A stretch of 64,000 nucleotides of DNA, from positions 93,340 through 157,339 of the forward strand of contig CBDEGW010000004.1 of NCBI GenBank assembly GCA_965237935.1, in the 5' to 3' direction. This stretch comes from Dehalococcoidia bacterium. Its GTDB lineage: Bacteria > Chloroflexota > Dehalococcoidia > Lucifugimonadales > CBDEGW01. Positions 578-43,095 of this stretch are shown here, piece after piece. The notes under the pieces were generated by a model. The model had not been told where the DNA came from. It searched no databases and worked only from the letters and a program-made list of their open reading frames with translations. Each line of letters begins with the position of its first letter. The first letter of the stretch is position 1. Made by a program: the position numbers and the translations under genes.

Positions 578-932
578 GATTCGCCTCCTCTTCGCTGATG
601 GGGCCGTCTGTTCTGCCATCGAGTCTGGGAAGTCGCGGGGCCGGACACCATGCCTTATATGGGAGGACTCGCGCGTCCTCCCTTTTAGGGCATGGGAAGG
701 AATGGGCCGGATGTGGTGTCATACCCGTGTACAGGGATTTGCTTCGGTGCCCAGAAGGGAAGTTTTGGGCTGTGGGCAACGTGAAACGGGCGTGAAGGAA
801 GGGAAGTGAGGCCGAGCCTGCGAGCACTTTGGTGAAAGGGGTGGTTCCGACAGCGGCCCAAAAGGGAAGTCGGGGGTGGCGTGACATCGGAGCGAGCAAT
901 TGGACGGGGAGGTTGGAATCGGGGGTCGAACC

Positions 933-960
933 CCCCTACAGGACAGCCCCCTACAGGACA
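933..960 (+). repeat. Tandem direct repeat CCCCTACAGGACA x2 (15-bp period) upstream of HTH gene
   Basis: Copies at 933-945 and 948-960, just before the GAGGAGG RBS of 982. Confidence 0.8.
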
Positions 961-981
961 TGACTGCGAGGAGGTGCGACC

Positions 982-2665: not shown

Positions 2666-2921
2666 CGGCGAGCTGGTCTTCCTGAACGCGGTCGGCCTCG
2701 GCCTCGGTGCGCTGCTGCTCAGGCGGTTCATCAAGCCCGGAGGCAGGCGGCGAACGGGACGGACGCAACAGGCACAACGGCAACCGAAGGCAAAGGCAAC
2801 ACAACACGAAGGAGGACACGATGACGACGCAAGCAACGACGATTGGTGGGACTGGGACAAGGCCACGGCCAAGCCTCGAAGAGCTGGTCGACCGGCTGAT
2901 GGCGGCGCTGTTCAGGGCTGA
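2532..2921 (+). CDS. Hypothetical membrane protein (2 TM)
   Basis: AAAGGAGG RBS; hydrophobic LTIAVVVAALLLGPLV and VFLNAVGLGLGALLL. Confidence 0.6.
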   Translation: MHVKELVPKVKGLAVKAGGFMRRRKRLTIAVVVAALLLGPLVTTDGELVFLNAVGLGLGALLLRRFIKPGGRRRTGRTQQAQRQPKAKATQHEGGHDDDASNDDWWDWDKATAKPRRAGRPADGGAVQG

Positions 2922-3285
2922 GCCGGAGACGGCGCCGAAGACGGAAACCCCCAGCGTGGCCCGCAGCGTCCACGAGGCGCGGCGGCTGCGGCAGGCGGGA
3001 GACCTCGACGGGGCGCTGGCGGTCTTCGCCGGCGTGGACACGGCAAGGGCGGAGACCAGGGAGGCTCGGTGGGCCTACGCCGAGTGGACGGACCTGGCGC
3101 GGAGGCGCTTCGGCGACCGGGACGCGCTGGTCTACAGCCAGGGCGCGGGACGGGCCGCCGCCCTGGTTCCCAGGGGCGACGGGACGCTTGAGGTCGCGGC
3201 GGCGCTGGGGATGCGCTGGGAGCCGGGCAAGGCCGTCTCGCGGCGAAGCCTGCGGGGTCTGCGGCCCCTGAGCGGGGGTGCGTGA
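2821..3285 (+). CDS. Hypothetical protein
   Basis: AAGGAGG RBS before ATG 2821; stop overlaps the primase start (GTGA). Confidence 0.7.
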   Translation: MTTQATTIGGTGTRPRPSLEELVDRLMAALFRAEPETAPKTETPSVARSVHEARRLRQAGDLDGALAVFAGVDTARAETREARWAYAEWTDLARRRFGDRDALVYSQGAGRAAALVPRGDGTLEVAAALGMRWEPGKAVSRRSLRGLRPLSGGA

Positions 3286-4334
3286 TGGTCGTAGCCAACG
3301 CCTCCGTTGACATCCCGGCGCTGAAGGCCCGTCACCCCCTGGGGGACACGGTTGAGGCGTCGGGGGTGCGGCTCAGGGGAAGGGGCAGGGTCCGCCAGGG
3401 CGGCTGTCCCTTCCACGACGAGATTGAGGGCAGCTTCACGGTGTACGCCGATTCTGAACGCTGGTACTGCTTCGGCTGCGGCTTGGGCGGCGACGTGCTG
3501 GACTTCATCCGGCGGGTCGAGAACCTGAGCCTGCCCGATGCGATCAAGCGGCTGGACGGCGGCCCAGGGCTTGCTGCCGGGGCCGCCCCTCGTCCGGTTT
3601 CGGCCAGGCGTCCCGGGGCAAGCCCGTTGCCCCCACGGGACCCGGCCCTGCTGACGGCGGCGGTCCGGTTCTACGCCGGGCAGCTCCGGCGCAGCCCGGC
3701 GGCAAGGGAGTACCTGGCCTCGCGGGGCGTCGCTCTTGACGCCTCCTTGCATCTCGGCCTCGGCTACTCGCCGGGGAGCGGGCTGCGGGAGGCCCTTGTG
3801 TCGGACGGCTTCAATGCCGGACGGCTCAGGGACTGCGGGCTGTTCACCGAGCGCGGTGAGCGGTTCGCAGGGATGGTGGTCATTCCCGACGCCTCCGGCG
3901 GTCTTGTCCGCTGGCTTGTCGGGCGGGCCATAGACCCCGACCGGACGCCCCGGTTCCAGGCGCTTCCCGGCTCCAAGCCGGTGCTTGGGCTTGGGCGTCT
4001 CGGCCCCGCGCCGCCCTTCGCGGTCGTGGCCGAGGGCGTCTTCGACTGGCTTGCCCTTGCGCAGTGGGGCGTCCCCGGCGTCGCTGCCCTGGGCACCCAG
4101 GGGGTCGAGAAGGTGGCGGAGGGCTTGCGGGGCTGCCCCCGGGTCTTCCTCGCCTTCGACTCGGACGACGCTGGACTTGAGGCCACGGAGCGGCTTGCGG
4201 GCTTGCTTGGACGCAGGGCCGCCGCCGTCACCCTTCCCCAGGGCGTCGGCGACGTGGCCGACCTTGCGGCCCTTCCCCACGGCCGCGCCGTCTTCCTCCG
4301 CCTGCTGGCTCAGGCGGCACGCTCCGCCCGCTAG
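3282..4334 (+). CDS. DnaG-like primase (CHC2 zinc finger + TOPRIM)
   Basis: CPFH...WYCFGC zinc finger; VAEGVFD and AFDSDDAG TOPRIM motifs. Confidence 0.9.
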   Translation: MMVVANASVDIPALKARHPLGDTVEASGVRLRGRGRVRQGGCPFHDEIEGSFTVYADSERWYCFGCGLGGDVLDFIRRVENLSLPDAIKRLDGGPGLAAGAAPRPVSARRPGASPLPPRDPALLTAAVRFYAGQLRRSPAAREYLASRGVALDASLHLGLGYSPGSGLREALVSDGFNAGRLRDCGLFTERGERFAGMVVIPDASGGLVRWLVGRAIDPDRTPRFQALPGSKPVLGLGRLGPAPPFAVVAEGVFDWLALAQWGVPGVAALGTQGVEKVAEGLRGCPRVFLAFDSDDAGLEATERLAGLLGRRAAAVTLPQGVGDVADLAALPHGRAVFLRLLAQAARSAR

Positions 4335-4562
4335 CGGCTTCTTCCCAGCTTCCCACTCCCCCGGACCACTTCCCCTCTACCGGAGCTTGACCCGCTCTGG
4401 CCTTGCTTGCGGGACTCCCTCCCGCTCCACCCCATCCCCACTCTCACCGCCCAGGAGGACCTATGCCCAATTCACGACGGGCCTTGCCCGCGCACGGCCT
4501 CCCGTAGGGGAGTCCGCACCGGCCATTCGCTACAGGAACGACACCACAAGAAGGAGACAGAC

Positions 4563-5366
4563 ATGGTGAACAGGAACGGAAGCAACAACGGCGTCCACAA
4601 GGACACCGCCATAGTCGCCAGGAACGGCAACGGGGCGCACAACGACCCCGCCATCATCGACGGGCACGAGCTGCTCTGGGACGGGCTGCCGCCCGCAGTC
4701 ACCAACGCCCTGGGGCAGCCCATCGACCCCGCGCTGGTCTCCCAGCGCAAGGGGCGCGGAGGCAGGGTCTTCGACTACCTCGAAGGCCACGCCGTCATTG
4801 ACCAGGCAAACCGCATCTTCGGCTACGGCGGGTGGGGCTATGAGTTGGTTGGGGACGTGACGCTGCGCCAGATCGAGACCGTCGATCCCCAGACCGGCGA
4901 GATCAAGACGACCTGCGCCTACAGCGCGCCGGTGCGAGTCACCGTTGCGGGCGCTCTGCCCCGCACCGACACCGGCGTTCACCCGGTGGCTGAAGACACC
5001 CTGGACGGCCACGACACGGCCATCAAGGGCGCGGTGACGGACGGCATGAAGCGGGCCTTCAGGAGCTTCGGTGTTCAGTTTGGCAACGGATTCTATGGAG
5101 ACCATGCCCCGGCCAGCGGCCCGCCCCGACCGGACCGGGCGCCCGTCCAGCCCAGGGCGGTGTCCGCCCCGGCGAACGTGGCGACGCTGCGCAAGCGGCT
5201 CGTCGAGCTGGCCGCCGAGCAGGGCTTCGACGAGGACCAGGTGCGGACCGCCGTGGTGGACCGGCTGGGCAAGAGCCTGGACGACCTGACGGCGGCGGAG
5301 CTGACGCCCCTCATCGAGGGGGCGACCGAGAAGCTCCAGCAGATGCGGCAGGCGCAGGCGGCCTAG
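4563..5366 (+). CDS. Rad52/Rad22-family single-strand annealing protein
   Basis: AAGGAG RBS at ATG 4563; YLEGHAVIDQANRIFGYGGWGY and AIKGAVTDGMKRAFRSFG are Rad52 signatures. Confidence 0.85.
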   Translation: MVNRNGSNNGVHKDTAIVARNGNGAHNDPAIIDGHELLWDGLPPAVTNALGQPIDPALVSQRKGRGGRVFDYLEGHAVIDQANRIFGYGGWGYELVGDVTLRQIETVDPQTGEIKTTCAYSAPVRVTVAGALPRTDTGVHPVAEDTLDGHDTAIKGAVTDGMKRAFRSFGVQFGNGFYGDHAPASGPPRPDRAPVQPRAVSAPANVATLRKRLVELAAEQGFDEDQVRTAVVDRLGKSLDDLTAAELTPLIEGATEKLQQMRQAQAA

Positions 5367-5458
5367 CCCGTCCTGCCCATCGGGACACGCAATCGAGCGG
5401 GGTCGTCTCTTCGAGGGCGGCCCCGCTTCTCATCTACAGGAAAAGGAGGACACGACCG

Positions 5459-5797
5459 ATGACGACGATGCACACACCCTGGGGGCCTCCCCAGGACATC
5501 GAGGAGCTGGCCGAGGGCGTCCTGCGGGTGTCCACCGCCAGCCACGGCGGGCTGAAGCTCAGCCGGGAGCGGTGGGCCGAAATCCCCGCCGCCGTCCGGC
5601 GGACCATGTTCACACCGACGTTCGCCGAAGAGGACTGCGAGGAACCCATCGTGAGTACGCTGCTGGGCCTGGGCGACGACCGGGAGAGGGAGATGGCGGT
5701 CAGGGTGGCGGAATACTTCGAGCGGTACGCTCCCGCGCTGCCCTATCTCCAGGGAAAGGGGGTGGGCCATGAGCATGAGCACGACCACGCGGCCTAG
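5459..5797 (+). CDS. Conserved mobile-element hypothetical protein (DUF7007-like)
   Basis: TPWG...STASHGGLKLS motif; strong RBS. Confidence 0.6.
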   Translation: MTTMHTPWGPPQDIEELAEGVLRVSTASHGGLKLSRERWAEIPAAVRRTMFTPTFAEEDCEEPIVSTLLGLGDDREREMAVRVAEYFERYAPALPYLQGKGVGHEHEHDHAA

Positions 5798-6188
5798 ACC
5801 CCGCAGCCTTCCCAGCACCACCACCAAGCTCCAGACGGAGTACGGGAACCTCTACGTCACCGTCTCTACGGACGAGGACGGAGAGCCGTTCGAGGTCTTC
5901 GGCTGGCTGGGCAAGGGCGGCTCATTCCAGCACGGGGTAACCGAGCTGGCTTGCCGCCTCATCTCGCTGCACATGCGGCGGGGTACGCCTCTCGAAGAAG
6001 TGATTGACCAGTGCCAGGGCATCCAGGAGATGCAGCCGTTCTTCAACACCATGCCCGACGGCAGGAGCGTGGCCGTCCTGGGACTCGGCGACGGGATAGC
6101 CCACATCCTCAAGGCCCACGTGAAGGCCGGGGAGGAGAGGGAGGCGGCGGAGACGGCGGAAGCGGTGGAAGCGAAGGCCGCTGCATGA
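5769..6188 (+). CDS. Stand-alone TSCPD-domain protein (class II RNR C-terminal/NrdJb-like)
   Basis: TEYGNLYVTV...PFEVF..GKGG...RLISLHMRRG.PLEEVIDQCQGI matches the NrdJ C-terminal domain pattern. Confidence 0.7.
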   Translation: MSMSTTTRPRPRSLPSTTTKLQTEYGNLYVTVSTDEDGEPFEVFGWLGKGGSFQHGVTELACRLISLHMRRGTPLEEVIDQCQGIQEMQPFFNTMPDGRSVAVLGLGDGIAHILKAHVKAGEEREAAETAEAVEAKAAA

Positions 6189-6281
6189 GCGGTCTGAACA
6201 ATCGAGAGCTTGGAATCCAGGCGGGGCCGTCTCCAACAGGGGCCGCCCCGCTTCCCATTACAGGACAAAGGAGGAATCGAC

Positions 6282-7406
6282 ATGACGACAGACATTGACC
6301 GGGCGGAGGTCTTCTCCCGCCCCGCTGCGCGGTTCGACGAGGACGGGCAGCTTGAGATACGGGCCTCGTCGGCCCTGGGCTGCCGCCGCGCCCTGTGGTA
6401 CGCGGCTACCGGATACGAATCGACGAATCCCCCCAGCGAGGACTCGCTGACGGCGATGGAGGCGGGCAACGCCCTCGAACCCGTCGTCCTGCGGGCGATG
6501 GAGCGGGCGGGCTGGCGGGTCGATCCCGCCGACCCCCGTAACCCCGAATCGGTGTCCATGCGGCTCCGCCCCTCCCTGGTCGTGACGGGACACCCCGACG
6601 CTACCGGGCGGATGCCCCCCGTATCAAGTACGGGGCAGGCTCTGGACGGAGACGAAGCGGTCTCCGAGGTCCAGACGTTCCTGTTCGGGGACGGGCCGCA
6701 GGCTCCCCGCTACGGCGACGAGATGGTCGTCGAGGTCAAGACCAGGGGGCCGGAGGCGTTCAAACGCTGGCGCACCCTAGGAGCGGAGCGCAGCCACCCG
6801 GCGTCGGTTGCCCAAGCCGCCTTCTACACCTATGGGAAGTTCGGAGGATGGCCCCGCGATGCGGTGATTGCCACGATGGACACGGGCGGCAGAACGTGGG
6901 ACTACGAAATCATCCCCGCCGACCGGCTGGAACGGGCCTTGGACGACGCCTGCAAATGGCTGGGCGAGCTTGCCGCCCACCATGTCCAGAACGGGCCTGA
7001 CCCCGACGCGCTGCCCGACCGGGATTTTTCCGCAGGTAGCTGGCAATGCCGGTCCTGCCCCTTCCTGGCGGTCTGCCTGCCGGGTGCGGCGGAAGCGGAC
7101 GACGAGACGGAGATGGAGGGAGAGGAGGTTAGCGACCAGGAGGCGCGGGACGCGGTGGCGGCCTACGCGGAAGCCCAGGAGTCAATCAAGGAGCCTGAAA
7201 AGGTCAAGCGCACTGCGCTGGACACACTCAAGGCGTGGATGCGCCGCCAGGGGGACTCCAAGGCGACCGTGAACGGAAAGACGGTCAGCCTAGTGCAGTC
7301 CACGAGGTACTCGGTCAACTACCGCAAGCTCAACGCCGTCCTCGACCCGGAAGTCCGGGCCGAGATCGTAACGGAGAGCGAGTCGGAGTACGTCCGGGTC
7401 AGCTAG
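6282..7406 (+). CDS. PD-(D/E)XK exonuclease, Cas4/AddB-like with 4-Cys Fe-S motif
   Basis: LGCRRALWY, GHPDA, VVEVKT, QAAFY, CRSCPFLAVC; AAAGGAGG RBS at ATG 6282. Confidence 0.8.
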   Translation: MTTDIDRAEVFSRPAARFDEDGQLEIRASSALGCRRALWYAATGYESTNPPSEDSLTAMEAGNALEPVVLRAMERAGWRVDPADPRNPESVSMRLRPSLVVTGHPDATGRMPPVSSTGQALDGDEAVSEVQTFLFGDGPQAPRYGDEMVVEVKTRGPEAFKRWRTLGAERSHPASVAQAAFYTYGKFGGWPRDAVIATMDTGGRTWDYEIIPADRLERALDDACKWLGELAAHHVQNGPDPDALPDRDFSAGSWQCRSCPFLAVCLPGAAEADDETEMEGEEVSDQEARDAVAAYAEAQESIKEPEKVKRTALDTLKAWMRRQGDSKATVNGKTVSLVQSTRYSVNYRKLNAVLDPEVRAEIVTESESEYVRVS

Positions 7407-7497
7407 ACGCTCCTGGCGGAGCGCACAACGGGGCCTGTTCCTCATCTACCGGTACGGCCCCGCCGAGTCCCATCAACCGAGCATGAAAGGAGACACC

Positions 7498-7869
7498 ATG
7501 CCCAACGCAACAGGGACCACGACGACCTGGCAGGACAACCACAGCGGACTGCGCAGGCACAAGCTCATGACCAAGGAGCTGGGGGACACCATCCCCGCGC
7601 TCGGAGCCAACGAGAACGTCGAGGACTACGACGACGTTCTCGCTCCAGCCAAACTTTTCAGCCCCTACAGCAACTGGACCTGGTACGTCACCGAGTGGGA
7701 CGCCGAGACCGGGGTGTGCTTCGGCCTCGTCGAGGGGTTCGAGACGGAGCTTGGCTACTTCTCCCTCGACGAGCTGGCGGAGGCGACCGTGTTCGGCAGC
7801 GTCCCCGCCGTGGAGCGCGACCTGTACTGGAAGCCGATGACCATCGGCGAGATCAGGAGGGGAGGATAG
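7498..7869 (+). CDS. DUF2958-like protein
   Basis: KLFSPYSNWTWYVTEWD...FGLVEGFETELGYFSLDEL. Confidence 0.75.
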   Translation: MPNATGTTTTWQDNHSGLRRHKLMTKELGDTIPALGANENVEDYDDVLAPAKLFSPYSNWTWYVTEWDAETGVCFGLVEGFETELGYFSLDELAEATVFGSVPAVERDLYWKPMTIGEIRRGG

Positions 7870-7923
7870 CGCCCTGGTACTCGGCGGTCACAAACGCAAT
7901 CAGAGAGGAAAAAAGGAGGACAG

Positions 7924-8283
7924 ATGAGCAGATTCGCGCCGAAGACGCTGCGGAGGATGCCGCCCGCCGCCCGCGAGATCGCGCGGCTGGCCAACGAGCT
8001 GGCCTCAGTGCAGACCCGCCTGGGCAACCGCATCGGGGGGCTGGTAAGCACGGAGATGATGGCGAGGGCGTCGGAGCGGGTGTTCTGTAGCAACGCCGCG
8101 CACGCCGAGGTGGTGGACGCCGCCCTGGGCTACTTCAGGGCGGTGGACAACCCGAAGGCCCACGCGGGCGAAGCCGTGGACGCCCTGGCAAGGCTCAGGC
8201 GCTCGGTCGAAGCCTTCGACCCCGACCGGCTCTTCGACGACGACGAGCCGGGGCCTGAGCCGCAGCACATCGAGTTCAGCTAG
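7924..8283 (+). CDS. Hypothetical protein
   Basis: AAAGGAGG RBS; lies between repeat-flanked genes. Confidence 0.7.
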   Translation: MSRFAPKTLRRMPPAAREIARLANELASVQTRLGNRIGGLVSTEMMARASERVFCSNAAHAEVVDAALGYFRAVDNPKAHAGEAVDALARLRRSVEAFDPDRLFDDDEPGPEPQHIEFS

Positions 8284-8399
8284 ACGCTCCGAAGCGGGAG
8301 CGCCGGACGGGGCCGCTTCCCTCTACAGGGATTCGCGGCCCCGCTCTCATTCAACCGGGCGCGGCAACGTCCGCGCCACACCATTCAGGAGGAATCGAA

Positions 8400-8801
8400 A
8401 TGGCACGCACCATCAACAAGGTAGAGCTCTTGGGACGGGTCGGTACCGAGCCGGAGATGCAGTACACCCCGAACGGCACAGCCGTCACCAAGCTGCGGCT
8501 GGCGACGGACCGCCGCAGCCAGGACGGGGAGGTCGAGGCCGACTGGCACAACGTCGTGATCTGGAGCAAGACCGCCGAAGCCGTCAACGAATACATCGGC
8601 AAGGGCGACCGCATCTACGTCGCCGGACGCCTGGTGAACAACACCTGGGAGGGCGACGACGGGCAGCGGCGCTACCGCACCGAGATTCACGCCTCCGAGG
8701 TCGTCTTCCTCGACTCTCGCAACGGCAACGGGAACGGCGGGCAGGTCAACGACGGCGACGCCTCGGACGTCGAGCAGACGGTCGCCGCTTCTCCCTTCTA
8801 G
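8400..8801 (+). CDS. ssb: Single-stranded DNA-binding protein
   Basis: INKVELLGRVGTEPE, WHNVVIW, IYVAGRL, TEIHA; C-terminal PF. Confidence 0.95.
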   Translation: MARTINKVELLGRVGTEPEMQYTPNGTAVTKLRLATDRRSQDGEVEADWHNVVIWSKTAEAVNEYIGKGDRIYVAGRLVNNTWEGDDGQRRYRTEIHASEVVFLDSRNGNGNGGQVNDGDASDVEQTVAASPF

Positions 8802-8917
8802 CCCGCTCAGTCCACAACCGCATAGCGACGCCTCACTGAAGGCGCACCACGGGGCCGCTCCCAACCTACAGGGGGCGGCCCCGCTCCTGTTTCTAACCGA
8901 AAACGAAGGAGGCCGAC

Positions 8918-9424
8918 ATGACCAGGAAGAAGACCCTCACCAAGGACGCCGCGCTGCTTGAGGCGCTGCGCAGCAACCTGCACCTGCTGGGCGAGATAGC
9001 CATGCGCTACGAGGTCGAGACCCAGCCGAAACGCCCGGAGGATCCGCCCTCCATCAACTGCCCCGACGACGTGTGCAGGCTGCTGGGGCCGGAGATGGCG
9101 CAACTGGCCCAAGAGCAGCTTCGGGTGCTGCTATTGGACACCAAGAACAACGTCGTGGGCCAGAGGGTGGTCTACCAAGGGAACGTATCGTCGGCCATCG
9201 TCAGGCCCGCCGAGGTGCTGCGCCCCGCCGTCATCGAAGCCGTCCCCAGCATCATCATCAGCCACAACCACCCCAGCGGCGACCCGACGCCCAGCCCGGA
9301 GGACGTGGCCATCACGAGGGAGCTGACGCAGGCGGCCAAGCTGCTGGGCATCGAGCTGCTCGATCACGTCGTCATCGGCGGGGAGAAGTTCGTCAGCCTC
9401 AAGGAGCGGGGCCTCATGGCCTGA
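8918..9424 (+). CDS. radC: RadC-like JAB/MPN domain protein
   Basis: EQLRVLLLD, HNHPSGDPTPSPED, LLDHVVI. Confidence 0.9.
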   Translation: MTRKKTLTKDAALLEALRSNLHLLGEIAMRYEVETQPKRPEDPPSINCPDDVCRLLGPEMAQLAQEQLRVLLLDTKNNVVGQRVVYQGNVSSAIVRPAEVLRPAVIEAVPSIIISHNHPSGDPTPSPEDVAITRELTQAAKLLGIELLDHVVIGGEKFVSLKERGLMA

Positions 9425-9522
9425 TGCTCCACAAGTCCTGACGGCCCTCGCCGTCCGGCTCTCACGCAGGGGCAACCGTCCCTGCGCATCTCCTCGACAC
9501 ATACACCGAAAGGAGACATGAC

Positions 9523-10152
9523 ATGCTCGCAACTCACACCATCGACCCCGAAGACCTCTACACCATCACGTCAGGCGGCTTCAGCGCCACCGCCGACGCC
9601 TTCGCCCGCGACGACAACACCGACGGCCTCTGGTTCGTCTCGATGGTCGGCTCCCAGACGGCGCTCAAGGCGATCTGGGCCTCGCTCCTCAAGCAGCCCC
9701 CCGACACCGCCCACATCATCCGTGGCGCGGACGGCATGGCGCTCTCGGGCGGCTACCAGCGGTGCCAGATTCCCTACGAGACCATCGGGACGTGGACGAC
9801 CAAGATCGCCCGCCTGCCGGTGTCGGGAGGCTGGCACGCCCTCGTGTACACCAAAACCGCCGAGTACGGATTCGAAAAGGGCAGCTTCCTCCTGCTGGCG
9901 CAGGCCGAGGATGAGGCCCCCGCGCTGCACCACCGCTTCCTGGACAAGCGCAGCCCGCTCCCCCTGCACGGCTCCTGGGCGGACTGGCTCTGGCGGCGGG
10001 GCCTGGACAACGGGGAGATAGTCCCCCTCCAGTCCGTCGGCGTCTCCGCCTACAGGTGCTCCCCCAAGGCCGACAAGCTCCGGGAAGACCTCTCCGACGC
10101 CGTGGCGTCGGGCTGGCTCACCCTGCCCACTGAGGAGGTTTCCGATGGATAG
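9523..10152 (+). CDS. Hypothetical protein
   Basis: AAAGGAG RBS; 209-aa globular-looking ORF coupled to the next gene. Confidence 0.75.
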   Translation: MLATHTIDPEDLYTITSGGFSATADAFARDDNTDGLWFVSMVGSQTALKAIWASLLKQPPDTAHIIRGADGMALSGGYQRCQIPYETIGTWTTKIARLPVSGGWHALVYTKTAEYGFEKGSFLLLAQAEDEAPALHHRFLDKRSPLPLHGSWADWLWRRGLDNGEIVPLQSVGVSAYRCSPKADKLREDLSDAVASGWLTLPTEEVSDG

Positions 10153-10552
10153 GACGCTGAAGACGGCCAAGCGCAAGAACAAGCGCAGGCAGAACCGGAA
10201 CGGGAGCGCCTGGCGGCGCTTCTCCCCGGACGGGACGACCTGCCGCTACTGCAAGCACGACCACACCACGCACCTGACAAGCTCAGGCCAACCCCACTTC
10301 TACCGGCCCGCCACGGAAGCGGAGAAGCGCGACCCCTCGGTCATGTTCTACCGCCACACCCTGGCCCAGGGCGGCTCCGTGCTGGTGCGGCGGATGGTCG
10401 TCGCCAACCACGCCGAGCTCGTCACCGCCTTCTGCACCGCCTGCGCGGAGAGCATCGGGACTCACCAAGTCCTCTGCTACCAGCGCAACGTGGGCGTCGG
10501 AGAGGTGGTCGGGGTGCAGACCGGCCACAGGGACATGGCAATCGCCGCCTGA
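10145..10552 (+). CDS. Hypothetical Cys/His-rich protein
   Basis: GAGGAGG RBS; CRYCKH and CTAC motifs. Confidence 0.7.
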   Translation: MDRTLKTAKRKNKRRQNRNGSAWRRFSPDGTTCRYCKHDHTTHLTSSGQPHFYRPATEAEKRDPSVMFYRHTLAQGGSVLVRRMVVANHAELVTAFCTACAESIGTHQVLCYQRNVGVGEVVGVQTGHRDMAIAA

Positions 10553-10585
10553 CGCGGCGCAAGACACAGGAAAGGAGAGGAGACC

Positions 10586-10855
10586 ATGCCAACGGAACAG
10601 ACGCTGTTCTTCACCTGCCCCCACTGCGACGAGCGGTTCGCGCAGGTCGAGGAGCCTGACAGGGACATCCACACCGGGGAGACCTACCACTGCGGCTCGT
10701 GCGGCATCCAGGTGGTCTTCCAGGCGGTGACCGTCGAGGACTACGTGCCGCCCCCCAGGGCGAGAAGGGACTGCCACTTCTGCAACCCCGAACCCTGCCG
10801 GTTCGGGCCGTCAACGGACACAATAGACGACACAGAGAAAGGAGAGACGACATGA
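10586..10855 (+). CDS. Small zinc-ribbon protein
   Basis: CPHC, CGSC, CHFC; strong RBS; ATGA overlap with the methyltransferase. Confidence 0.7.
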   Translation: MPTEQTLFFTCPHCDERFAQVEEPDRDIHTGETYHCGSCGIQVVFQAVTVEDYVPPPRARRDCHFCNPEPCRFGPSTDTIDDTEKGETT

Positions 10856-13800
10856 GACTTGCAGCACAGGCAAAAGGCGGGTTTTACCCCACGCCGGAGC
10901 GGGTCGTCGACCTGCTCGCGGAGCTGATTCACACCCCCACCGGCTACTACCACAGGGACCGGGAGACGCTGCGCATCCTCGACCCCTGCTGCGGGGCTGG
11001 GGAGGCGCTGGCGCAGCTGGCCGAGCGCATGGACGCGCCCAACGCCATCCCCATCGAGACCTACGGCGTCGAGCTGCACCGGGACCGGGCGGAGGAGGCG
11101 GAGAAGCGGCTCGGGCGCGCCCTGGCCTCGGACCTGTTCGCCACGTCCGTAGCGAACGGGGCCTTCGGGCTGCTCCTTTTGAATCCGCCGTATGACCATG
11201 ACTCGGAAGACAAGCGGACGGAGCACGCCTTCCTGACCCAGACCACGCGCTACCTGGCCGAGGGCGGGCTGCTGGTGTTCATCGTCCCCAGACAGCGCCT
11301 CGCGGTCTCGGCCCGCTACCTCTCCACCCACTACGGGCGGATGCGCTGCTGGGCGTGCGCCGCTTAACGCGGTATAGAATCCCCGACTCAATCGGGAGAA
11401 ACTCGGAGTACGTTTCTGGGTCAACCAACCTACCTCAAGGCGAAAGCCAAGGGGGAAAACAGCATGTTGGTAAAGCGGCTACGGTCTGAAAGCGTTGTAA
11501 GACCGGTTCCGCAAGACCCGCGCTATATGGTGAAAGCTACACTGCCTGAACCTCAGTATCCGATCGGAGATTAGCGCCTCCCTCTGGTATAACGCTTGAA
11601 ACCCAGAGCCACTCATTACCTCAAGTTGGGTCCAGCCTTGCTGTAACTCCGATGAGTGGGCGTTGGCCAATGAGGCCAGTTAAGGGTACGAACGAGGCAC
11701 CTAAGTAGCGCTATCACGTTCTATACCGACGGAATGCGGGATTCCCTAATGGGGGCGACCCCTATGGGAACGGAGCCACCGTAGTAGTCCGAGGACGGGA
11801 AAGCCGTCCACATGGCGAAGGGTGGCAGGTGTCAATCGAGACTCAGAAAAGGAGGTGCGCGAGATGCGCAACGCCGAAACCATACTGGGAATCATTCGCA
11901 ACAGAGGTACACGGGGACTGCCCGTGAACGACCTTTACCGCCAACTCTGGAACCCGAACCCGTACCTGATGGCCTACGGGCGCATCGCCAAGAACGACGG
12001 CGCGCTCACCCCAGGCGCAACACCGGAAACCGCAGACGGGACGAAGATGGACGACATCCACGCGATCATCGAGGCCCTCCGCTTCGAGCGCCACCGATGG
12101 ACTCCGGCCCGCCGCGTATACATCCCGAAAGCCAACGGGAAGCGGCGGCCACTCGGACTCCCCGCGTGGTCGGACAAGCTGCTGCAAGAAGTGATGCGTC
12201 TCCTATTGGAGGCGTACTACGAACCGCAGTTCAGCGACCGGTCGCACGGCTTCCGGCCCAACCGTGGATGCCACACGGCCTTCACGGAGATAACCCGCAC
12301 CTGGACGGGCACAACATGGTTCATCGAAGGAGATATCGCCGGTTGCTTCGACAACATCGACCATAAGGTGTTGATGGAAATACTTGGTGAGAACATCCAG
12401 GACAACCGCTTCCTGCGGCTCGTCTCCAATCTCCTCCGGGCTGGCTACCTTGAGGACTGGAAGCTCAACGCCACCTACAGTGGCACCCCGCAGGGGGGTG
12501 TGGTGAGTCCCATACTCGCCAACGTCTACCTAGACCGGTTGGACAGGTTCGTGGAGGGAGTGCTTTTGCCCGATTACAACCGTGGCATGAAGCGGAAGCG
12601 CAACCAAGAGTACCAAAGGTTGGAAAGCAGGGCCAGATACTTTCTGAGTGCTGGACGTGGCAAAGAGGCGGCGGCTCTCCGCCCCCTCATGCGGTCGTTG
12701 CCTGCCAACGACACCCACGACCCTGCCTACCGCCGCCTGCGGTACATACGGTACCCCGACGACTTCCTGCTCGGCTTTGCGGGGCCAAAGGATGAGGCCG
12801 ATGAGATCAAGGCTAGGATAGGTATGTTCCTGCGAGATAATCTCAAGCTGGAGCTATCCGACGCCAAAACCCTGGTCACCCACGGCCGAACCCAAGCAGC
12901 ACGGTTCCTCGGCTATGAGGTCGTCGTTCAAGGGAACGACACCAAGCTCGACGCCAGTGGCCGTCGGTCGGTCAACGGCATCATCGGGCTGCGCGTTCCA
13001 CAAGACGTAGTACGCGCCAAGAGCGCCGCATACATGCGAGACGGCAAACCGCAGCAACGCGGGGAACGGCTTCACGACTCGCCATACAGCATCGTGGAGC
13101 AATACCAGGCGGAGTTCCGGGGCGTCGTCAACTACTACCGGCGTGCAACCAACCTGAGCGCACTGAACCATCTACGCTGGGTCATGGAAATGTCTCTCGC
13201 CAAGACGCTTGCAAGCAAGCTGAAGATCAGCGTCTCGCAGGTGTTCAAGCGGTACAAGACCACGATTCAGACGGACAACGGGCCTCGCAAGGTCTTGATG
13301 GTGAAGGTGGACGAGCCGGGCAAAAAGCCGCTGGTGACGTACTGGGGCGGCGTTTCGCTTGCGCGGGACAACACGGCAACCCTGATCGACAAACACCCCC
13401 CGATACTCAACGGTCGGACGGAACTCGTGCAGCGCCTGCTGGCCGACACCTGCGAGCTTTGCGGCTCAACGGTCAAGGTACAGGTGCACCACATACGAGC
13501 AATGAAAGACCTGCGAAAGAAAGGGCGGGCCGAACGGCCCGCTTGGGTGGAGATGATGGCACAGCGGCGTCGAAAGACGCTCGTGGTCTGTGCGCCATGC
13601 CATGCGGACATCCATGCCGGACGACCGCTGAAGCAGATTGCACAGGCAGCCTAAGTATCCACGTTGCAAAGGTCGGTAGTGTCTCAACAGTGTTACACTA
13701 GGGATGACAGGCAAGACATGCATCGTATAAGCCGGAAACTGGTCAAGATCGGCATCATCCTTGTGGCCATCGGTGTCACAATGGCGCTGCTGTGTGGCCT

Positions 13801-14664
13801 GTCCGGTGGTGTGCTCTGGGCGGTAGGTGGACGTGACCACGTAAGCGACAGCGGTGTCAGATACATGCTGGTGGTCGCCTACATATCGTTTTACGCCTGC
13901 CTTGTTGCCAGTCTTGTCACCCTCGCCGGAGGCGTCGGCGCCGGTGCGCTTGGTTTGACGCTGAAGGGTGTTGTCCTAGGTACGGCATACTTCCATAGGC
14001 CCTAGACACTATCCACCACTTACGACACTAGAGAGCCGGATGCGGTGAAAGCCGCACGTCCGGTTCGGAAGGGGGCCGACGGAAAAGTGCTCCGGTAACA
14101 CGGGGTAACTCGCCGGCGGCCTACCTTACCTTCCCGCACCCGGAGCGCGAGGTCTTCGACCAGGTGGTGTTGATGGGCTACCGGAAGGCCGACCCCGTTC
14201 CCGACGCCCACGGCGAGAGCATGGTGCTGGAGTGGGCGGTGGGTGAGCCGGAGCCGATGCGCCCCGAACAGTACCCGCCGTTCACCCCGAAGACCACGCC
14301 GAGCGGCGACATCCTGTTCACCACCCGCACCGTCGATCCCGTCGCGGCTGCTGCTGAGGCGCGGCGGTCGGGGCTGTGGACGAGCACGGAGATAACCGAC
14401 ACCCTCTGGCCCGCCAGGGACACCCGCACCCGCCCGCTGATGCCCCTGCGAAGGGGACACATGGCGATGCTGGTGGCGGCGGGCTTCCTCGACAACCTCT
14501 GCCTGGAGGCGGAGGGGCGGCGCATCCTGGTCAAGGGCCGCACCAGCAAGGAGATGGTCATGGTGGAGGACAGCCCCGAGAAGGAGGTCCACCGGGAGAA
14601 GCTCAAGACCACGGTGGTCGCCCTGGACCTCAACGGCGGAGAGATCACCGACATCGCAGCATAG
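10852..14664 (+). CDS. SAM-dependent DNA methyltransferase (DUF6094-like), split by a group II intron; exons 10852-11354 and 14130-14664, 345 aa spliced
   Basis: FYPTP, LDPCCGAGE, NPPY motifs; joining the exons (503+535 nt) gives in-frame RCWA-FPHPEREVFDQVVL. Confidence 0.9.
11864..13654 (+). CDS. ltrA: Intron-encoded reverse transcriptase/maturase with C-terminal HNH endonuclease
   Basis: KRRPLG, GTPQGGVVSPILANVYL, YIRYPDD (variant of YADD), CELC..VHH...CAPCHADIH; AGGAGG RBS at 11864. Confidence 0.92.
   Translation: MRNAETILGIIRNRGTRGLPVNDLYRQLWNPNPYLMAYGRIAKNDGALTPGATPETADGTKMDDIHAIIEALRFERHRWTPARRVYIPKANGKRRPLGLPAWSDKLLQEVMRLLLEAYYEPQFSDRSHGFRPNRGCHTAFTEITRTWTGTTWFIEGDIAGCFDNIDHKVLMEILGENIQDNRFLRLVSNLLRAGYLEDWKLNATYSGTPQGGVVSPILANVYLDRLDRFVEGVLLPDYNRGMKRKRNQEYQRLESRARYFLSAGRGKEAAALRPLMRSLPANDTHDPAYRRLRYIRYPDDFLLGFAGPKDEADEIKARIGMFLRDNLKLELSDAKTLVTHGRTQAARFLGYEVVVQGNDTKLDASGRRSVNGIIGLRVPQDVVRAKSAAYMRDGKPQQRGERLHDSPYSIVEQYQAEFRGVVNYYRRATNLSALNHLRWVMEMSLAKTLASKLKISVSQVFKRYKTTIQTDNGPRKVLMVKVDEPGKKPLVTYWGGVSLARDNTATLIDKHPPILNGRTELVQRLLADTCELCGSTVKVQVHHIRAMKDLRKKGRAERPAWVEMMAQRRRKTLVVCAPCHADIHAGRPLKQIAQAA
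13718..14005 (+). CDS. Passenger small membrane protein inside intron domain IV
   Basis: 95-aa ORF with 2-3 hydrophobic helices between the IEP stop and domain V. Confidence 0.55.
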   Translation: MHRISRKLVKIGIILVAIGVTMALLCGLSGGVLWAVGGRDHVSDSGVRYMLVVAYISFYACLVASLVTLAGGVGAGALGLTLKGVVLGTAYFHRP

Positions 14665-14767
14665 ACGGCTCGCCCCAAGAGCCGCGCCACAAGGCCCCGC
14701 CATCCCTCTACCGGGAAACGGCGGGGCCTCGCTTCGTCTGGACGCAACACCATTATAAAGGAAGGTC

Positions 14768-14968
14768 GTGAAGATGCAGATAACCATGACGCTGGAAGCC
14801 TGCGCCCGGTGCGGGCAGCCCATCGCCCCCGGCGAACCCGCCATGCAGACCGCCTCAGTGGACATCATCGGCGGAAGGGCGGTCTCCTCCCCGGTGAAGT
14901 CCTACCACCTGAAGGGCCGCTGCTACAACGACGTGCACCGGCGGGAGTCCCTTCCGAACGCAGCATAG
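14768..14968 (+). CDS. Small Zn-binding hypothetical protein
   Basis: AAAGGAAGG RBS, GTG start, CARC and YHLKGRC; flanked by repeat units. Confidence 0.6.
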   Translation: MKMQITMTLEACARCGQPIAPGEPAMQTASVDIIGGRAVSSPVKSYHLKGRCYNDVHRRESLPNAA

Positions 14969-15070
14969 ACGGCTCACACGAGCCGCTCACGAGGCCCCGT
15001 CGGTCCCATCGACTGGCGGGACTCGCTTATCGCCCAACCCCAAGCACTCTCATAAAGGAAGGAGAAAGAC

Positions 15071-16441
15071 ATGAACCTCGGACAGTTCATCGACACATTC
15101 AAGGACGCCATCGCCCAGCGGGTGGTGGCGTCCTACCCGCCCCTCTACAGGCCCTCGGAGAACGGCCACAGGCTCCCCCGCCTGCTCCGCAAGCCCCTGG
15201 GGGCGCAGGCCGACGCCATACGGGGCGCGGCCCTCTCCCTCGAAGCCCACCGGGGCACCACCGTCGTCGGCGAGATGGGCACCGGCAAGACCTTCATCGC
15301 CGCCGCCGCCGCACATGGCGGGCTTCAAGCGGGTCCTGGTCCTCTGCCCGCCCCACCTGGTGCCCAAGTGGAAGCGGGAGGTGGAGATGACGGTGCCCGG
15401 CGCCCGCGCCGTCATCGTCAAGTCCATCACCGACCTGGAGCGGCTGCGCATCTCCGCCGGCTCCGGCCCCCTCTTCGCGGTGATGAGCCGTGAGAAGGCC
15501 AAGCTGTCCTACCGCTGGATGCCCGCCGTGATACAGCGGTGGGCTGTGTCCAAGGGCAGTTTGTTGCGGGACGAGGAGACGGGCGAGCCGTTCCGGGTTC
15601 CCTGATGCCCCGACTGCACGGCTCAGATCGTGGACAAGGACGGCGTTCCCCTCACCGACGAGGACCTGAACCGCAGGAAGCACACTTGCGCCAACTGCGG
15701 CTCCCCCCTCTGGCAGGCCGACAAGTCCGGCCCCGCCCGCTACCCTCTGGCCGACTACGTGAAGCACCACATGAAGGGGTTCTTCGACCTGCTGGTCGGG
15801 GACGAGGTGCACGAGTACAAGGGAAGAGGCTCGGCCCAGGGCATCGCCGCCGGAGTCCTAGCCGACGTCTGCGGCAAGTCCCTCAGCCTGAGTGGAACCC
15901 TCATGGGAGGGTATAGCTCGACGCTCTTCCACCTGCTCTACCGGTTCTCGCCTGAGATCAGGACGGAGTTCGGGCGCTCCGACGAGCACCGCTGGATTCA
16001 GCGATACGGCTTCGAGGAGCACACCGTCGGCAAGACGGACGACGAGGCGGTGGAGGACGGGCGCAACAGCAGACGGCGCAAGTACCGCAAGGTGGTCAGG
16101 GAGCGGCCGGGACTGGTGCCCAGCGCCCTCTTCCACATCATCGGCAACACCGTCTTCCTGCGCCTCGCCGACGTGGCCTCGGGCCTGCCCCCCTACGAGG
16201 AGCAGGTGATGCTCTCCTCGATGGACTCGGAGGAGGATGCGACGGGCTACTCCCAGCGCAGCGCCTACAACACCGTGTACGAGGAGCTGCGGCTGAAGCT
16301 GGCTGAGGCTCTCAAGGCTGGCTCGAAGCGGCTGCTGGCGACCTACCTGCAAACCCTGTTGGCCTACCCTGACGGCTGCACCAGGGGGGAGACGGTCTTC
16401 GACCCCAGGAGCGGGGACGTGATCGTGCAGGTGCCGCCCCT
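15071..16441 (+). pseudogene. SF2 (SNF2/DEAD-like) helicase pseudogene
   Basis: GEMGTGKT and DEVHE motifs; 2-bp deletion near 15314, in-frame TGA at 15603-05, 3' end cut by IS3. Confidence 0.85.
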
Positions 16442-16458
16442 TAAGGTGGACCCCATTA

Positions 16459-17394
16459 TTAAGACAGCACGAGGGCTAAATTAAGAGAGTCTCCCACCCC
16501 TGCGCTAGGTTTCACCAAGCCCGATGGCAGCCCTGCTTCTTCAGCTGCTGCTCCCCTTTCTTCCTGGCCATGTTGGTACACCTCTGCTGGGGTCCGGTAG
16601 CCCAAAGCCTGGTGAGGCCTCTGCCGGTTGTAGAACTCCAGGTAGGCATTGATCCCAGTTCGGGCCTCGGCGACGGTCTGGTAAGCTTTCAGATACACCT
16701 CCTCGTACTTGATGCTCCGCCACAGCCGCTCCACGAAGATGTTGTCCAGGTACCTACCCTTACCATCCATGCTGACCTGGACCCTCTGCTCCTGCAACGT
16801 CTGGGTAAAGGCCTCACTGGTGAACTGACTCCCTTGGTCGGTGTTGAATATCTCCGGTCGTCCCTTACCCAGGGCTTCCTCCAACGCCGCCACGCAGAAG
16901 CTGGTGTCCATGGTGTTGGAGAGCTTCCAGGCCAGCACGTGCCGGCTGTGCCAGTCCATGATGGCCACCAGGTACAGGAAGCCCTTCGCCATGGGGATGT
17001 AGGTGATGTCCGCGGCCCAGACCTGGTCGACCCGATTAACCTCCACTCCCTTCAGCAGATAGGGAAAGATCCGGTGTCCCGGCGCTGGTTTGCTGGTGTT
17101 GGGACGCCGGTAGATCGCTTCCAGACCCATCAACCGCATCAGCCTTCGAACCCTTTTTCGGCTCACCAGATAGCCCTGTTGCAGCAGCCAGGCCTTCATC
17201 TTCCTGGAGCCGTAGAAGGGGGTCTTCAAATACTGACGGTCCATCAGGGCCATCAACTCCAGGTCTTCTGCCCTGGTCGGTACCGGCCGGTAGTACACCG
17301 AGGCCCGGCTGACGTCCAGCAGGATACATTGACGCACCAAAGACAGCTGCTGGTGGTCTCGGTCTATCATGGCTCGCCGTATGCTGCGACTCAT
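16459..17394 (-). CDS. IS3 transposase OrfB (DDE integrase core)
   Basis: [32 protein letters not shown]. Confidence 0.95.
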
Positions 17395-17675: not shown

Positions 17676-17711
17676 GTCCTGCTCCTCCACGTCGGTTAGT
17701 TGCCGGTTATT

Positions 17712-43064: not shown

Positions 43065-43095
43065 TTTTCATGCCACGCTTTTTCGCAAGGAAATA

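What the first reader, a model, noticed from the sequence alone, without database searches (positions are those of the whole stretch)
4335..15070. Family of covarying two-hairpin intergenic elements with a CTAC(A/C)GG core in front of the element's genes
Seen: most intergenic gaps follow the order stop codon, short hairpin, second GC hairpin, A/C-rich spacer, strong RBS. Hairpin 2 lies at 5396-5427, 6221-6251, 7429-7462, 8308-8343, 8850-8883, 14692-14729 and 14991-15024. Its stem covaries (CGGGGCCGC..GCGGCCCCG vs AGGCCCCGCC..GGCGGGGCCT). A (C/T)TAC(A/C)GG core sits in the loop (7446, 8323, 8866, 14708) or just 3' of it (4377, 4530, 5434, 6258). Known: conjugative leading regions use repeated hairpin ssDNA promoters (Frpo/ssi) or conserved-upstream (CUP) repeats to co-express establishment genes. 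No sigma70 boxes are evident here. Inference: an undescribed Chloroflexota-type ssDNA/RNA regulatory element coordinating a gene array.
Basis: partly seen in the sequence, partly recalled or inferred. Interest (0 to 1): 0.85.

Follow-up and report, generated by a model that had tools for sequence, protein, structure and literature searches.

The report
Repeated intergenic hairpins in an ICE
The DNA-processing gene array of a decayed conjugative element in a Dehalococcoidia genome is punctuated by a conserved, covarying two-hairpin unit plus a short one-way CTACAGG box; this undescribed cis-element family occurs in hundreds of related elements, and its mechanism is still unproven.

Summary
Seven gaps between + strand genes (5367-15070) carry a terminator-like GC hairpin (H2) at the stated coordinates. 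Five also have a short hairpin (H1) that starts at the stop codon. A covariance model built from orthologues finds 279 full-length copies in 80 syntenic Dehalococcoidia loci. All lie on the gene strand. None occur in the host part of the window or in 1.24 Mb of control DNA. Nine of 13 modelled pairs show compensatory changes. Stems are 93% identical between orthologues, against 62% at neighbouring third codon positions.

The CTACAGG box is separable from the hairpins. It sits in the H2 loop, just 5' of the next ribosome-binding site, or in tandem in front of the array's first gene. It is kept where the hairpins are absent. In intergenic DNA the strand counts are 251 to 4.

Rfam has no match. 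The Frpo-type ssDNA-promoter reading fails: the hairpins are about four times too weak, and no -35/-10 boxes are found.

Best reading (about 0.45): hairpins act in the sense transcript as module insulators or 3'-end stabilisers, and the box is a shared expression signal for an element-encoded factor. Priming sites on transferred ssDNA remain a live rival.

The parts
921..957 (+). Small hairpin GGGGG-TCGAA-CCCCC (921-935) followed by tandem boxes CCCCCTACAGGAC (CTACAGG at 936-942 and 951-957), 31 nt before the ATG of the first + strand gene (982-1386, HTH protein)
   Evidence: The tandem arrangement is conserved in front of the orthologous 300-aa gene in many loci. The gene product is weakly Xre/Cro-like by fold.
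4377..4425 (+). Start of the primase-Rad52 leader: box CTACCGG (4377-4383) overlapping the 5' arm of hairpin CCGGAGC..GCTCTGG (4380-4400), then hairpin GCGGGA..TCCCGC (4409-4425)
   Evidence: Read. Conserved with CTAC/CTAA/CTAT variants in relatives.
4451..4536 (+). Conserved leader: SD AGGAGG, 14-codon ORF 4463-4507 whose stop TAG lies in a hairpin loop, then box CTACAGG (4530-4536) 33 nt before the Rad52 ATG (4563)
   Evidence: The sequence is nearly invariant in 38 diverse loci. The reading frame is broken in 2 of the 38, so the peptide is doubtful.
5395..5440 (+). Rad52/DUF7007 junction: H2-type hairpin 5395-5428 (14 pairs, no box in the loop), tail CTCAT, box CTACAGG 5434-5440, then SD
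   Evidence: z -4.65. Weak model hit, E 0.04.
6177..6264 (+). TSCPD/nuclease junction: H1 6177-6193 with stop TGA in its loop, H2 6221-6251, box TTACAGG 6258-6264, then SD
   Evidence: E 0.08; z -1.2 alone. Orthologues often have UUCG/UCCG loops. In about 15 loci the hairpins are absent and only the box and SD remain.
7404..7462 (+). Full unit after the PD-(D/E)XK-like gene: stop TAG 7404-7406, H1 7408-7423, H2 7429-7462 with box CTACCGG 7446-7452 in the apical loop
   Evidence: (72 bits, E 4e-20). An orthologous unit is present in all 80 loci.
8281..8377 (+). Full unit before ssb: stop TAG 8281-8283, H1 8285-8302, H2 8308-8343 with box CTACAGG 8323-8329, and a third hairpin 8358-8377
   Evidence: 77 bits; z -4.1. 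The third hairpin is conserved in front of ssb in relatives.
8829..8883 (+). Unit between ssb and radC: H1 8829-8844, H2 8850-8883 with box CTACAGG 8866-8872. It is the only unit here that passes a simple terminator scan.
   Evidence: 40 bits; z -5.2.
14662..14729 (+). Unit after the methyltransferase gene: stop TAG 14662-14664, H1 14666-14684, H2 14692-14729 (arms swapped relative to 8308-8343) with box CTACCGG 14708-14714
   Evidence: 30.5 bits, E 3e-7; z -5.5.
14966..15025 (+). Unit before the helicase gene: stop TAG 14966-14968, H1 14970-14985, H2 14990-15025, no box in the loop
   Evidence: 18.9 bits, E 1e-3; z -4.4.
9440..9486 (+). Two hairpins after radC (9440-9455 and 9465-9486) in the same kind of position, but not members of the family by the model
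   Evidence: No hit.

Best explanation
Window 900-16480 is a decayed copy of an integrative conjugative element (ICE). Its + strand array runs primase, Rad52, DUF7007-TSCPD, PD-(D/E)XK nuclease, DUF2958, SSB, RadC, DUF6094 methylase, helicase. The array is divided into modules of 1-4 genes by a composite cis-element.

Inferred model:
1. The array is read as sense RNA from upstream.
2. H1 (6-8 bp, at or just after the stop codon) and H2 (12-16 bp, GC-rich, followed by C and a U/C-rich tail) fold in that RNA.
3. They act as leaky terminators and/or 3'-end stabilisers that insulate one module from the next.
4. The separate 7-13 nt box (CC[C/A]TCTACAGG[G/A]) is a shared signal for expression of the next module, read by an element-specific factor.
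5. The best candidate factor is the Xre/Cro-like HTH protein encoded directly behind the tandem boxes. This is the same logic as ArdK/CUP or Reg576 operators in conjugative plasmids.
6. Together they make the modules one regulon.

Shown: the structures, their covariation, strand specificity, element specificity and positions. Inferred: every functional step, including whether the box is read as DNA or as RNA.
For: Structure is real and selected:
- z-scores are -2.4 to -5.5 for six of seven units.
- There are 279 full-length model hits in 80 loci, all on the gene strand.
- There are no hits in the 47 kb host part of the window or in 1.24 Mb of control contigs.
- Nine of 13 pairs carry compensatory changes, with 0 of 500 shuffles as high.
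- Stems are 93.5% identical, against 62.5% at third codon positions and 41% in the H1 loop.

Hints for sense-strand RNA:
- In conserved pairs, G-T wobbles outnumber A-C by 45 to 17.
- After H2 comes an invariant C, then 35-61% T at positions 2-8.
- UUCG/UCCG loops are frequent in one orthologous H2.
- A syntenic but divergent element (L167) has unrelated hairpins with C/U-rich tails in the same kind of gaps.

Box is independent of the hairpins and tied to gene starts:
- Intergenic CTACAGG is 251 on the gene strand and 4 on the other.
- It is kept where the hairpins are lost.
- Distances to the next ATG cluster at 25-35, 45-50 and 70-95 nt.
- 75% of long H2 loops carry the box with at most one mismatch.
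- Tandem copies are conserved in front of the HTH gene.

Other points:
- The array has no sigma70-like promoter.
- The same upstream gene is followed by at least four different genes across loci, with the junction in the unit.
Against: - No transcript data exist.
- Only 1 of the 7 H2 tails passes a simple U-tract test. A host terminator in the window has a clean TTTT tail.
- Minimum free energies do not favour the + strand. With RNA parameters the mean is -34.7 (+) against -36.1 (-); with DNA parameters the two are equal.
- The wobble count is inflated by shared ancestry.
- Tail-to-SD complementarity is no better than with shuffled tails.
- Terminators inside an array without internal promoters need read-through or antitermination, and nothing shows that.
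- The HTH assignment is weak: pLDDT 57, Foldseek E about 1.
- A box at the exact apex of a hairpin is not explained if the box is a duplex operator.
Confidence: 0.45

Rival explanations
1. The units are single-strand initiation (priming) sites. They fold on the transferred or displaced + strand DNA, stand out of SSB-coated DNA, and are recognised by the element's own DnaG-type primase (3282-4334). The primase starts primers at the CTA of the box. One site behind each gene would let each gene become double-stranded soon after entry.
For: - All 279 copies are on one strand.
- Stem bases are conserved in sequence, not only in pairing, as expected for a sequence-specific protein.
- Genes for a CHC2 zinc-ribbon/Toprim primase and an SSB lie in the same array.
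- CTA is the best-kept part of the box: C 97%, T 86%, A 94%.
- From memory, not tested: CTA and CTG are DnaG start trinucleotides, and plasmid primases such as RepB' use small hairpin ssi sites.
- Folding as DNA is significant, z -3.2 to -4.3.
Against: - The transferred strand and oriT are unknown.
- The box persists without any hairpin, at a fixed place before ribosome-binding sites. A priming site has no reason to do that.
- UNCG loops and the U/C-rich tail are unexplained.
- Units stop at the helicase gene, although the element continues.
- L167 has the same primase family but no units.
- Known elements need only one to three such sites (general knowledge).
Confidence: 0.2
2. Everything acts on duplex DNA. 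The box is an operator or 'stoperator' for an element repressor, and the inverted repeats are further protein-binding half-sites, as proposed for the ESAS repeats of cluster K mycobacteriophages. No hairpin ever forms.
For: - Tandem boxes lie in front of an HTH gene.
- There are many one-way copies in short gaps, and the motif is absent from the host. Stoperators and SAS behave the same way (PMC9283540; PMC3203893).
- The ArdK/CUP system shows the same logic in IncN leading regions (PMC6289460).
Against: - Different copies in one element have different, mutually compensating arm sequences, including a complete swap of arms (8308-8343 against 14692-14729). One protein would not read all of these.
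- H1 loops vary freely while the pairs are kept.
- In ESAS, by contrast, departures do not preserve pairing.
Confidence: 0.12
3. The units are recombination sites or cassette boundaries, attC-like or simply homology patches. Their role is to shuffle gene modules between elements.
For: - The same upstream gene is joined to DUF2958, ssb, the 119-aa gene or a fourth gene across loci, with the junction inside the unit.
- Unit homology includes the last two or three codons and the TAG of unrelated upstream genes: TCAGCTAG twice, GCAGCATAG twice.
- The stem base is conserved and the top is variable.
Against: - Only about 10-12 gene families occur next to units, unlike integron diversity.
- No GTTRRRY/RYYYAAC cores are seen in the sequences.
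- No recombinase gene is seen in the 21 kb loci.
- Ordinary homologous recombination between repeats explains the shuffling as a by-product.
Confidence: 0.08
4. The units are Frpo/ssi-type ssDNA promoters that let host RNA polymerase transcribe the entering single strand.
For: Context only: a conjugative element, with SSB and methylase genes typical of leading regions.
Against: - Folding energy as DNA is -17 to -25 kcal/mol, against a screen of below -75 kcal/mol.
- Stems are 6-16 bp, too short to hold -35 and -10.
- No -35/-10 pair is found on either strand.
- The wobble pattern favours the sense strand, which cannot be the template for these genes.
Confidence: 0.03
5. The hairpins are ordinary, unrelated intrinsic terminators, and the box is a chance motif.
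For: The hairpins are GC-rich and lie after stop codons. One passes the terminator scan.
Against: - They are one sequence family by covariance model.
- The loop box is shared.
- The strand bias of the box is extreme.
- The host part has neither.
- Six of the seven tails fail the U-tract test.
Confidence: 0.03

Closest known systems
Start-associated sequences (SAS) and extended SAS (ESAS) of cluster K mycobacteriophages (PMC3203893)
   Same: Both have a short asymmetric motif in 11-19 copies, in one orientation only. Both are confined to the non-structural gene part, lie in front of start codons and are absent from the host. About half the copies are accompanied by inverted repeats with a variable spacer just upstream. 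Function is unknown in both.
   Different: SAS lies 3-7 bp from the start codon and contains the SD. The box here lies 15-95 nt upstream and usually precedes the SD. ESAS arms do not keep base pairing, whereas these arms covary. The host here is a conjugative element of Chloroflexota, and there is no sequence similarity.
Stoperators of cluster A mycobacteriophages (PMC9283540)
   Same: Both have many copies of a 13-14 bp asymmetric site in short gaps near stop and start codons, one orientation relative to transcription, and copies at the early promoter.
   Different: Stoperators have no hairpins. Binding of a repressor is proven there and untested here. Here the box sits in hairpin loops.
CUP elements / ArdK of IncN plasmids, and Reg576 operators of p576 (PMC6289460, PMC6294495)
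   Same: Both have repeated operators in front of several establishment genes of a conjugative element, including the regulator's own gene. This gives one regulon.
   Different: Those sites overlap recognisable promoters and are read as duplex DNA. No hairpin pair is described for them. Here no promoter is recognisable.
Frpo / ssi ssDNA promoters of F-like and IncI plasmids (PMC12672017)
   Same: Both are hairpins in gaps between genes of a conjugative element.
   Different: Size, energy and the lack of -35/-10 boxes differ.
RNase III sites between T7 early genes, REP/BIME elements, and PeSL cassettes of T4-type phages (from memory, not checked here)
   Same: All are repeated structured elements between co-transcribed genes. 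They set transcript ends or stability, and in PeSL they also mark shuffling junctions.
   Different: There is no sequence relation. REP elements are genome-wide, while these are confined to one array. PeSL carries a sigma70 promoter, and none is found here.
Rfam families, including ICE-associated motifs
   Same: Context: structured motifs near ssb or anti-restriction genes of conjugative elements.
   Different: No Rfam 15 model matches even at E up to 5. Only the group II intron does.

Membership tests
Frpo/ssi-type ssDNA promoter | Large stem-loop in ssDNA (screen: folding energy below -75 kcal/mol) | tested here: not met
   Units fold at -17.3 to -25.3 kcal/mol as DNA; the mean of 105 units is -19.6. 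The threshold is from PMC12672017.
Frpo/ssi-type ssDNA promoter | -35 and -10 boxes rebuilt in the stem | tested here: not met
   0 sigma70-like sites on either strand of 800-16600. Stems are 6-16 bp.
Frpo/ssi-type ssDNA promoter | Lies on the transferred strand, which is the template of the genes | tested here: inconclusive
   oriT and the transferred strand are unknown. Wobble pairs favour the sense strand 45:17, but folding energies do not.
Intrinsic (factor-independent) terminator | GC-rich hairpin directly followed by a U-tract | tested here: inconclusive
   The hairpin criterion is met. Only 1 of 7 tails has at least 5 T in 8. Tails are T-enriched (35-61% at positions 2-8) but interrupted.
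Intrinsic (factor-independent) terminator | RNA 3' ends map to the tail | not testable with these tools
   No transcript data are available.
Stoperator-type operator | Many copies of one asymmetric site, in one orientation relative to transcription, in short gaps | tested here: met
   About 10 copies in the window. Intergenic copies are 251 against 4 by strand in 80 loci.
Stoperator-type operator | Bound by the element's repressor, blocking elongation | not testable with these tools
   The candidate HTH protein is only weakly Xre/Cro-like.
SAS/ESAS (cluster K phages) | Motif 3-7 bp from the start codon and containing the SD core | tested here: not met
   Distances to the ATG are 15-95 nt, and the box usually precedes a separate SD.
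SAS/ESAS (cluster K phages) | Inverted repeats upstream whose differences do not keep pairing | tested here: not met
   Pairing is kept through compensatory changes in 9 of 13 pairs.
Integron attC site | R''/R' core sites (RYYYAAC ... GTTRRRY) and a nearby integron integrase | tested here: not met
   Stem feet read ACG(G/A)GGCC ... GGCC(C/T)CGC. No integrase domain appears among the proteins scanned.
REP/BIME elements | Dispersed through the host chromosome | tested here: not met
   There are no model hits in the 47 kb of host sequence in the window. In relatives, hits are confined to the array.
Any Rfam 15 family | Score at or near the family's gathering threshold | tested here: not met
   only Intron_gpII matches.

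The most novel reading that the evidence does not exclude
The units are dedicated priming sites for the element's own DnaG-type primase on the transferred single strand. One sits behind every establishment gene, with synthesis starting at the CTA shown in the hairpin loop, so each gene is converted to duplex as soon as it has entered the recipient. A second unexcluded novel reading: the box is a promoter for a dedicated transcription factor or polymerase, placed inside the loop of the previous module's terminator. Transcripts that start there would lack the 5' arm and escape termination.
Probability: 0.2. Interest if true: 0.85.

Novelty: new variant of a known kind. Interest (0 to 1): 0.6.

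Why it matters
Little is known about how conjugative elements outside Proteobacteria and Firmicutes time their establishment and recombination genes. This work defines a compact, testable cis-code: stop codon, H1, H2, box, ribosome-binding site.

The code is very abundant. The flanking nuclease gene has 294 relatives in GTDB species genomes, with several copies per genome, and more than 1,500 protein clusters in metagenomes. The hosts are uncultured Dehalococcoidia.

It also gives:
- a covariance model for annotating these elements;
- a natural system for asking whether repeated hairpins in mobile elements act as RNA or as ssDNA;
- a second, covarying counterpart to the unexplained SAS/ESAS repeats of mycobacteriophages.

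Tried and rejected
- Rfam at gathering and at permissive thresholds gave nothing except the group II intron.
- RNAalifold on the raw MAFFT alignment gave a poor structure, because indels in the H2 loop misalign it. I used a hand-set structure and a covariance model instead.
- Viral contigs: the radC neighbourhoods (1.24 Mb) have no units, so they served as a negative control. The nuclease has no viral relatives.
- The protein search for distant nuclease relatives returned only relatives of at least 75% identity, so it gave no deep comparison.
- The strand-of-folding test by free energy and by G-U counts in predicted folds was uninformative or contradictory.
- The anti-SD idea for the pyrimidine tail failed: it is no better than shuffled tails.
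- Group II introns do not target the hairpins. They sit inside the methylase and ssb coding sequences.
- TAG stop-codon excess is mild: 60% in the element against 36% in the host.
- The exact-sequence look-up for the ssb product found nothing, and one for a nuclease relative (P0002) returned a single ordinary metagenome contig, so neither gave transcript-like contigs.
- Searches for a trans-acting factor found no family or PDB hit for the small proteins. The HTH protein model has low confidence.
- The TGTACAGG palindrome in the host part (43008-43027) is not a repeated family.
- The ECF-like reading GGAAAC-N15-CGTCT fits only the 14692 class.
- The resemblance of the box to T7/T3 promoter initiation regions is from memory, and no phage-type polymerase gene was seen.

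Full report
**Context**

The window has 61% G+C. Positions 900-16480 stand out by third-position G+C of about 0.9, against about 0.7 elsewhere. The + strand genes are, in order:
- an HTH protein (982-1386);
- a CHC2/Toprim DnaG-type primase (3282-4334);
- Rad52/22 (4563-5366);
- DUF7007 and TSCPD (5459-6188);
- a 374-aa protein (6282-7406) that I call PD-(D/E)XK-like from its motifs only;
- DUF2958 (7498-7869);
- a 119-aa protein;
- SSB (8400-8801);
- RadC (8918-9424);
- three small proteins;
- a DUF6094 methyltransferase split by a group II intron (10852-11367 and 14131-14664);
- a 64-aa zinc-ribbon protein;
- a helicase (15071 onward).

In relatives, a TrbL/VirB6 gene lies upstream on the other strand. 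Prok-E2, JAB and ThiF genes follow the helicase. The region is therefore part of an integrative conjugative element (ICE).

The copy in the window is decayed. The helicase has a frameshift near 15312 and stops at about residue 470 of 794. The HTH gene has an internal deletion.

**Check of the observation**

Six of the seven units beat dinucleotide shuffles (z -2.4 to -5.5). The 6177-6255 unit does not on its own.

Five units share this order:
- stop codon TAG;
- H1 (6-8 bp);
- a 3-8 nt spacer;
- H2 (12-16 bp);
- one C, then a T/C-rich tail;
- an A/C-rich stretch;
- a strong SD.

All stated YTACMGG positions are right. The 4377 copy sits at the 5' foot of another hairpin. Two tandem copies at 936 and 951 were missed. 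No sigma70-like promoter is found in 800-16600.

**Relatives**

The nuclease gene has 294 relatives in GTDB species genomes. The best 80 (73-97% identical) are nearly all Dehalococcoidia MAGs, often with several copies per genome. The protein database holds more than 1,500 clusters of relatives.

The unit after this gene is present in all 80 loci. Between orthologues:
- the 26 stem columns are 93.5% identical;
- the H1 loop is 41% identical;
- third codon positions of the preceding gene are 62.5% identical.

The stems are therefore under far stronger constraint than the coding sequence, or they are homogenised by gene conversion.

**Family census**

I built covariance model R1 from 66 copies with only the two outer helices specified.
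- In the window it finds 8278, 7401, 8824, 14659 and 14963 (E 1e-21 to 1e-3), and weakly 5361 and 6201. All are on the + strand. Nothing significant appears in the host part.
- In the 80 loci it finds 288 hits. All 279 full-length hits are on the gene strand. The nine minus-strand hits are partial re-readings of the palindromic H2.
- It finds nothing in 1.24 Mb of control contigs that carry radC.
- It finds nothing downstream of the helicase in metagenome relatives.

**Covariation**

Orthologues alone show none, because the stems do not vary.

Across the paralogous classes, 9 of 13 pairs have changes on both sides. In H1 these are CG/GC/UA exchanges; in H2 they are GC/AU and GC/CG exchanges. 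The count is 145 cells, no shuffle out of 500 reaches the observed values, and sliding the partner by 1-3 columns drops the count to 5-16 cells. Two caveats apply: the alignment is model-fitted, and the copies are related by descent.

H2 at 14692-14729 has its arms swapped relative to 8308-8343, while the loop keeps its orientation.

**The box is a separate part**

In 189 long, distinct H2 sequences, 75% carry CTACAGG with at most one mismatch at the apex. The consensus is CC[C/A]TCTACAGGG[G/A]. Another 25 short H2 variants lack it.

The same box also occurs outside loops:
- 2-12 nt before the SD of Rad52, DUF7007 and the nuclease gene;
- in tandem, 31 nt before the first gene of the array.

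At the TSCPD-nuclease junction, about 15 loci have no hairpin at all. They retain only CATCTACAGGA and the SD.

Intergenic CTACAGG counts are 251 on the gene strand against 4 on the other. Distances to the next start codon cluster at 25-35, 45-50 and 70-95 nt.

**RNA, ssDNA or duplex?**

Duplex-only reading is unlikely. Different copies in one element have different, mutually compensating arms.

Hints for the sense strand as RNA:
- G-T against A-C is 45:17 at conserved pairs;
- the tail is T-enriched;
- UNCG loops are frequent in one orthologue group;
- the syntenic but divergent element L167 has unrelated hairpins with C/U-rich tails in the same kind of gaps.

Points against a firm call:
- free energies of the two strands are equal or slightly favour the minus strand;
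- only one tail passes a U-tract test;
- a host terminator in the window has a clean T run.

The ssDNA priming-site model stays possible. The array encodes its own DnaG-type primase and SSB, all copies are on one strand, and CTA is the most conserved part of the box.

The Frpo-type promoter model fails on size, energy and promoter boxes.

**Module junctions**

Across loci, the nuclease gene is followed by DUF2958, ssb, the 119-aa gene or a fourth gene. ssb is followed by radC or by another gene. The junctions fall inside the unit.

Unit homology includes the last codons and the TAG of unrelated upstream genes. Only about a dozen gene families are involved. I therefore read the shuffling as a consequence of repeated homology rather than as the purpose of the unit.

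**Candidate factor**

The 300-aa protein encoded behind the tandem boxes has a confident helical segment at residues 40-100. Its best structural matches are Xre, Cro and C-protein regulators, though none is significant. This fits the ArdK/CUP and Reg576 logic of repeated operators in establishment regions, but it is weak evidence.

**Verdict**

This is a new, abundant, element-specific family of composite cis-elements.

My preferred model has a confidence of about 0.45: hairpins as transcript punctuation, and the box as a shared expression signal. The priming-site model is at about 0.2.

The closest described analogue is the unexplained SAS/ESAS system of cluster K mycobacteriophages. The family differs from it in that pairing is kept here and in the placement of the box.

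Noticed in passing
window 11368-14130 (RT ORF 11864-13654; domains V-VI 14031-14129); second RT ORF 44741-46576: A group II intron with an RT/maturase ORF splits the DUF6094 methyltransferase gene. A second intron-type RT ORF lies in the host part. Related introns sit inside ssb (L008) and elsewhere (L066, L170) in relatives.
   Followed up: partly
window 982-1386, 1387-2116 and 15071-16484: The element copy is decayed. The HTH gene has an internal deletion relative to 300-aa homologues and is followed by 730 nt without clear coding. The helicase has a frameshift near 15312 and is cut off at about residue 470 of 794, where G+C at third positions drops to host level.
   Followed up: partly
window 4451-4507: A strong SD is followed by a 14-codon ORF (MPNSRRALPAHGLP) whose stop codon sits in a hairpin loop (GTAG). 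It is nearly invariant in 38 diverse loci, but the frame is broken in two of them (L003, L027). It may be a leader peptide or a purely structural leader.
   Followed up: partly
window 884-903 and 1427-1470: The direct repeat ACATCGGAGCGA(G/A)..GCGAGCAATT flanks the truncated HTH gene. The same block is conserved upstream of the tandem boxes in relatives. It could be a promoter, an oriT part or a scar of rearrangement.
   Followed up: no
window 8358-8377: A third conserved hairpin (GGCGCGG-loop-CCGCGCC) lies specifically in front of ssb in the window and in most relatives.
   Followed up: no
window 43008-43080: The host gap between convergent genes holds a perfect palindrome CCTTCCTGTACAGGAAGG, followed by a canonical terminator with a TTTT tail. 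The palindrome contains TACAGGA, the core of the box, but it is not repeated elsewhere in the window.
   Followed up: partly
window 10145-10552: This 135-aa protein has an arginine/lysine-rich N-terminus (KTAKRKNKRRQNRNGSAWRR) and cysteine/histidine motifs. It has no family or PDB match. It is a possible nucleic-acid binder and candidate partner of the hairpins.
   Followed up: partly
L167 (MKWU01000431.1), 2000-12400: This syntenic element has the same gene order (primase, Rad52, TSCPD, SSB, DUF6094, helicase) but none of the units or boxes. Its gaps carry unrelated hairpins. An NYN-domain/Trans_reg_C protein is encoded upstream.
   Followed up: partly
L167 14434-16005; L170 4471-6631: Prok-E2_D, Prok-JAB and ThiF (E1-like) genes follow the helicase in relatives. 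This is a ubiquitin-like conjugation module carried by the element.
   Followed up: no
L020 14514-15512: An IS110-family transposase is inserted in the array of one relative.
   Followed up: no
window 16594-18794, minus strand: Five CTACCGG matches lie on the minus strand within 2.2 kb of minus-strand host genes. They are probably Tyr-Arg codon pairs and not the box.
   Followed up: no
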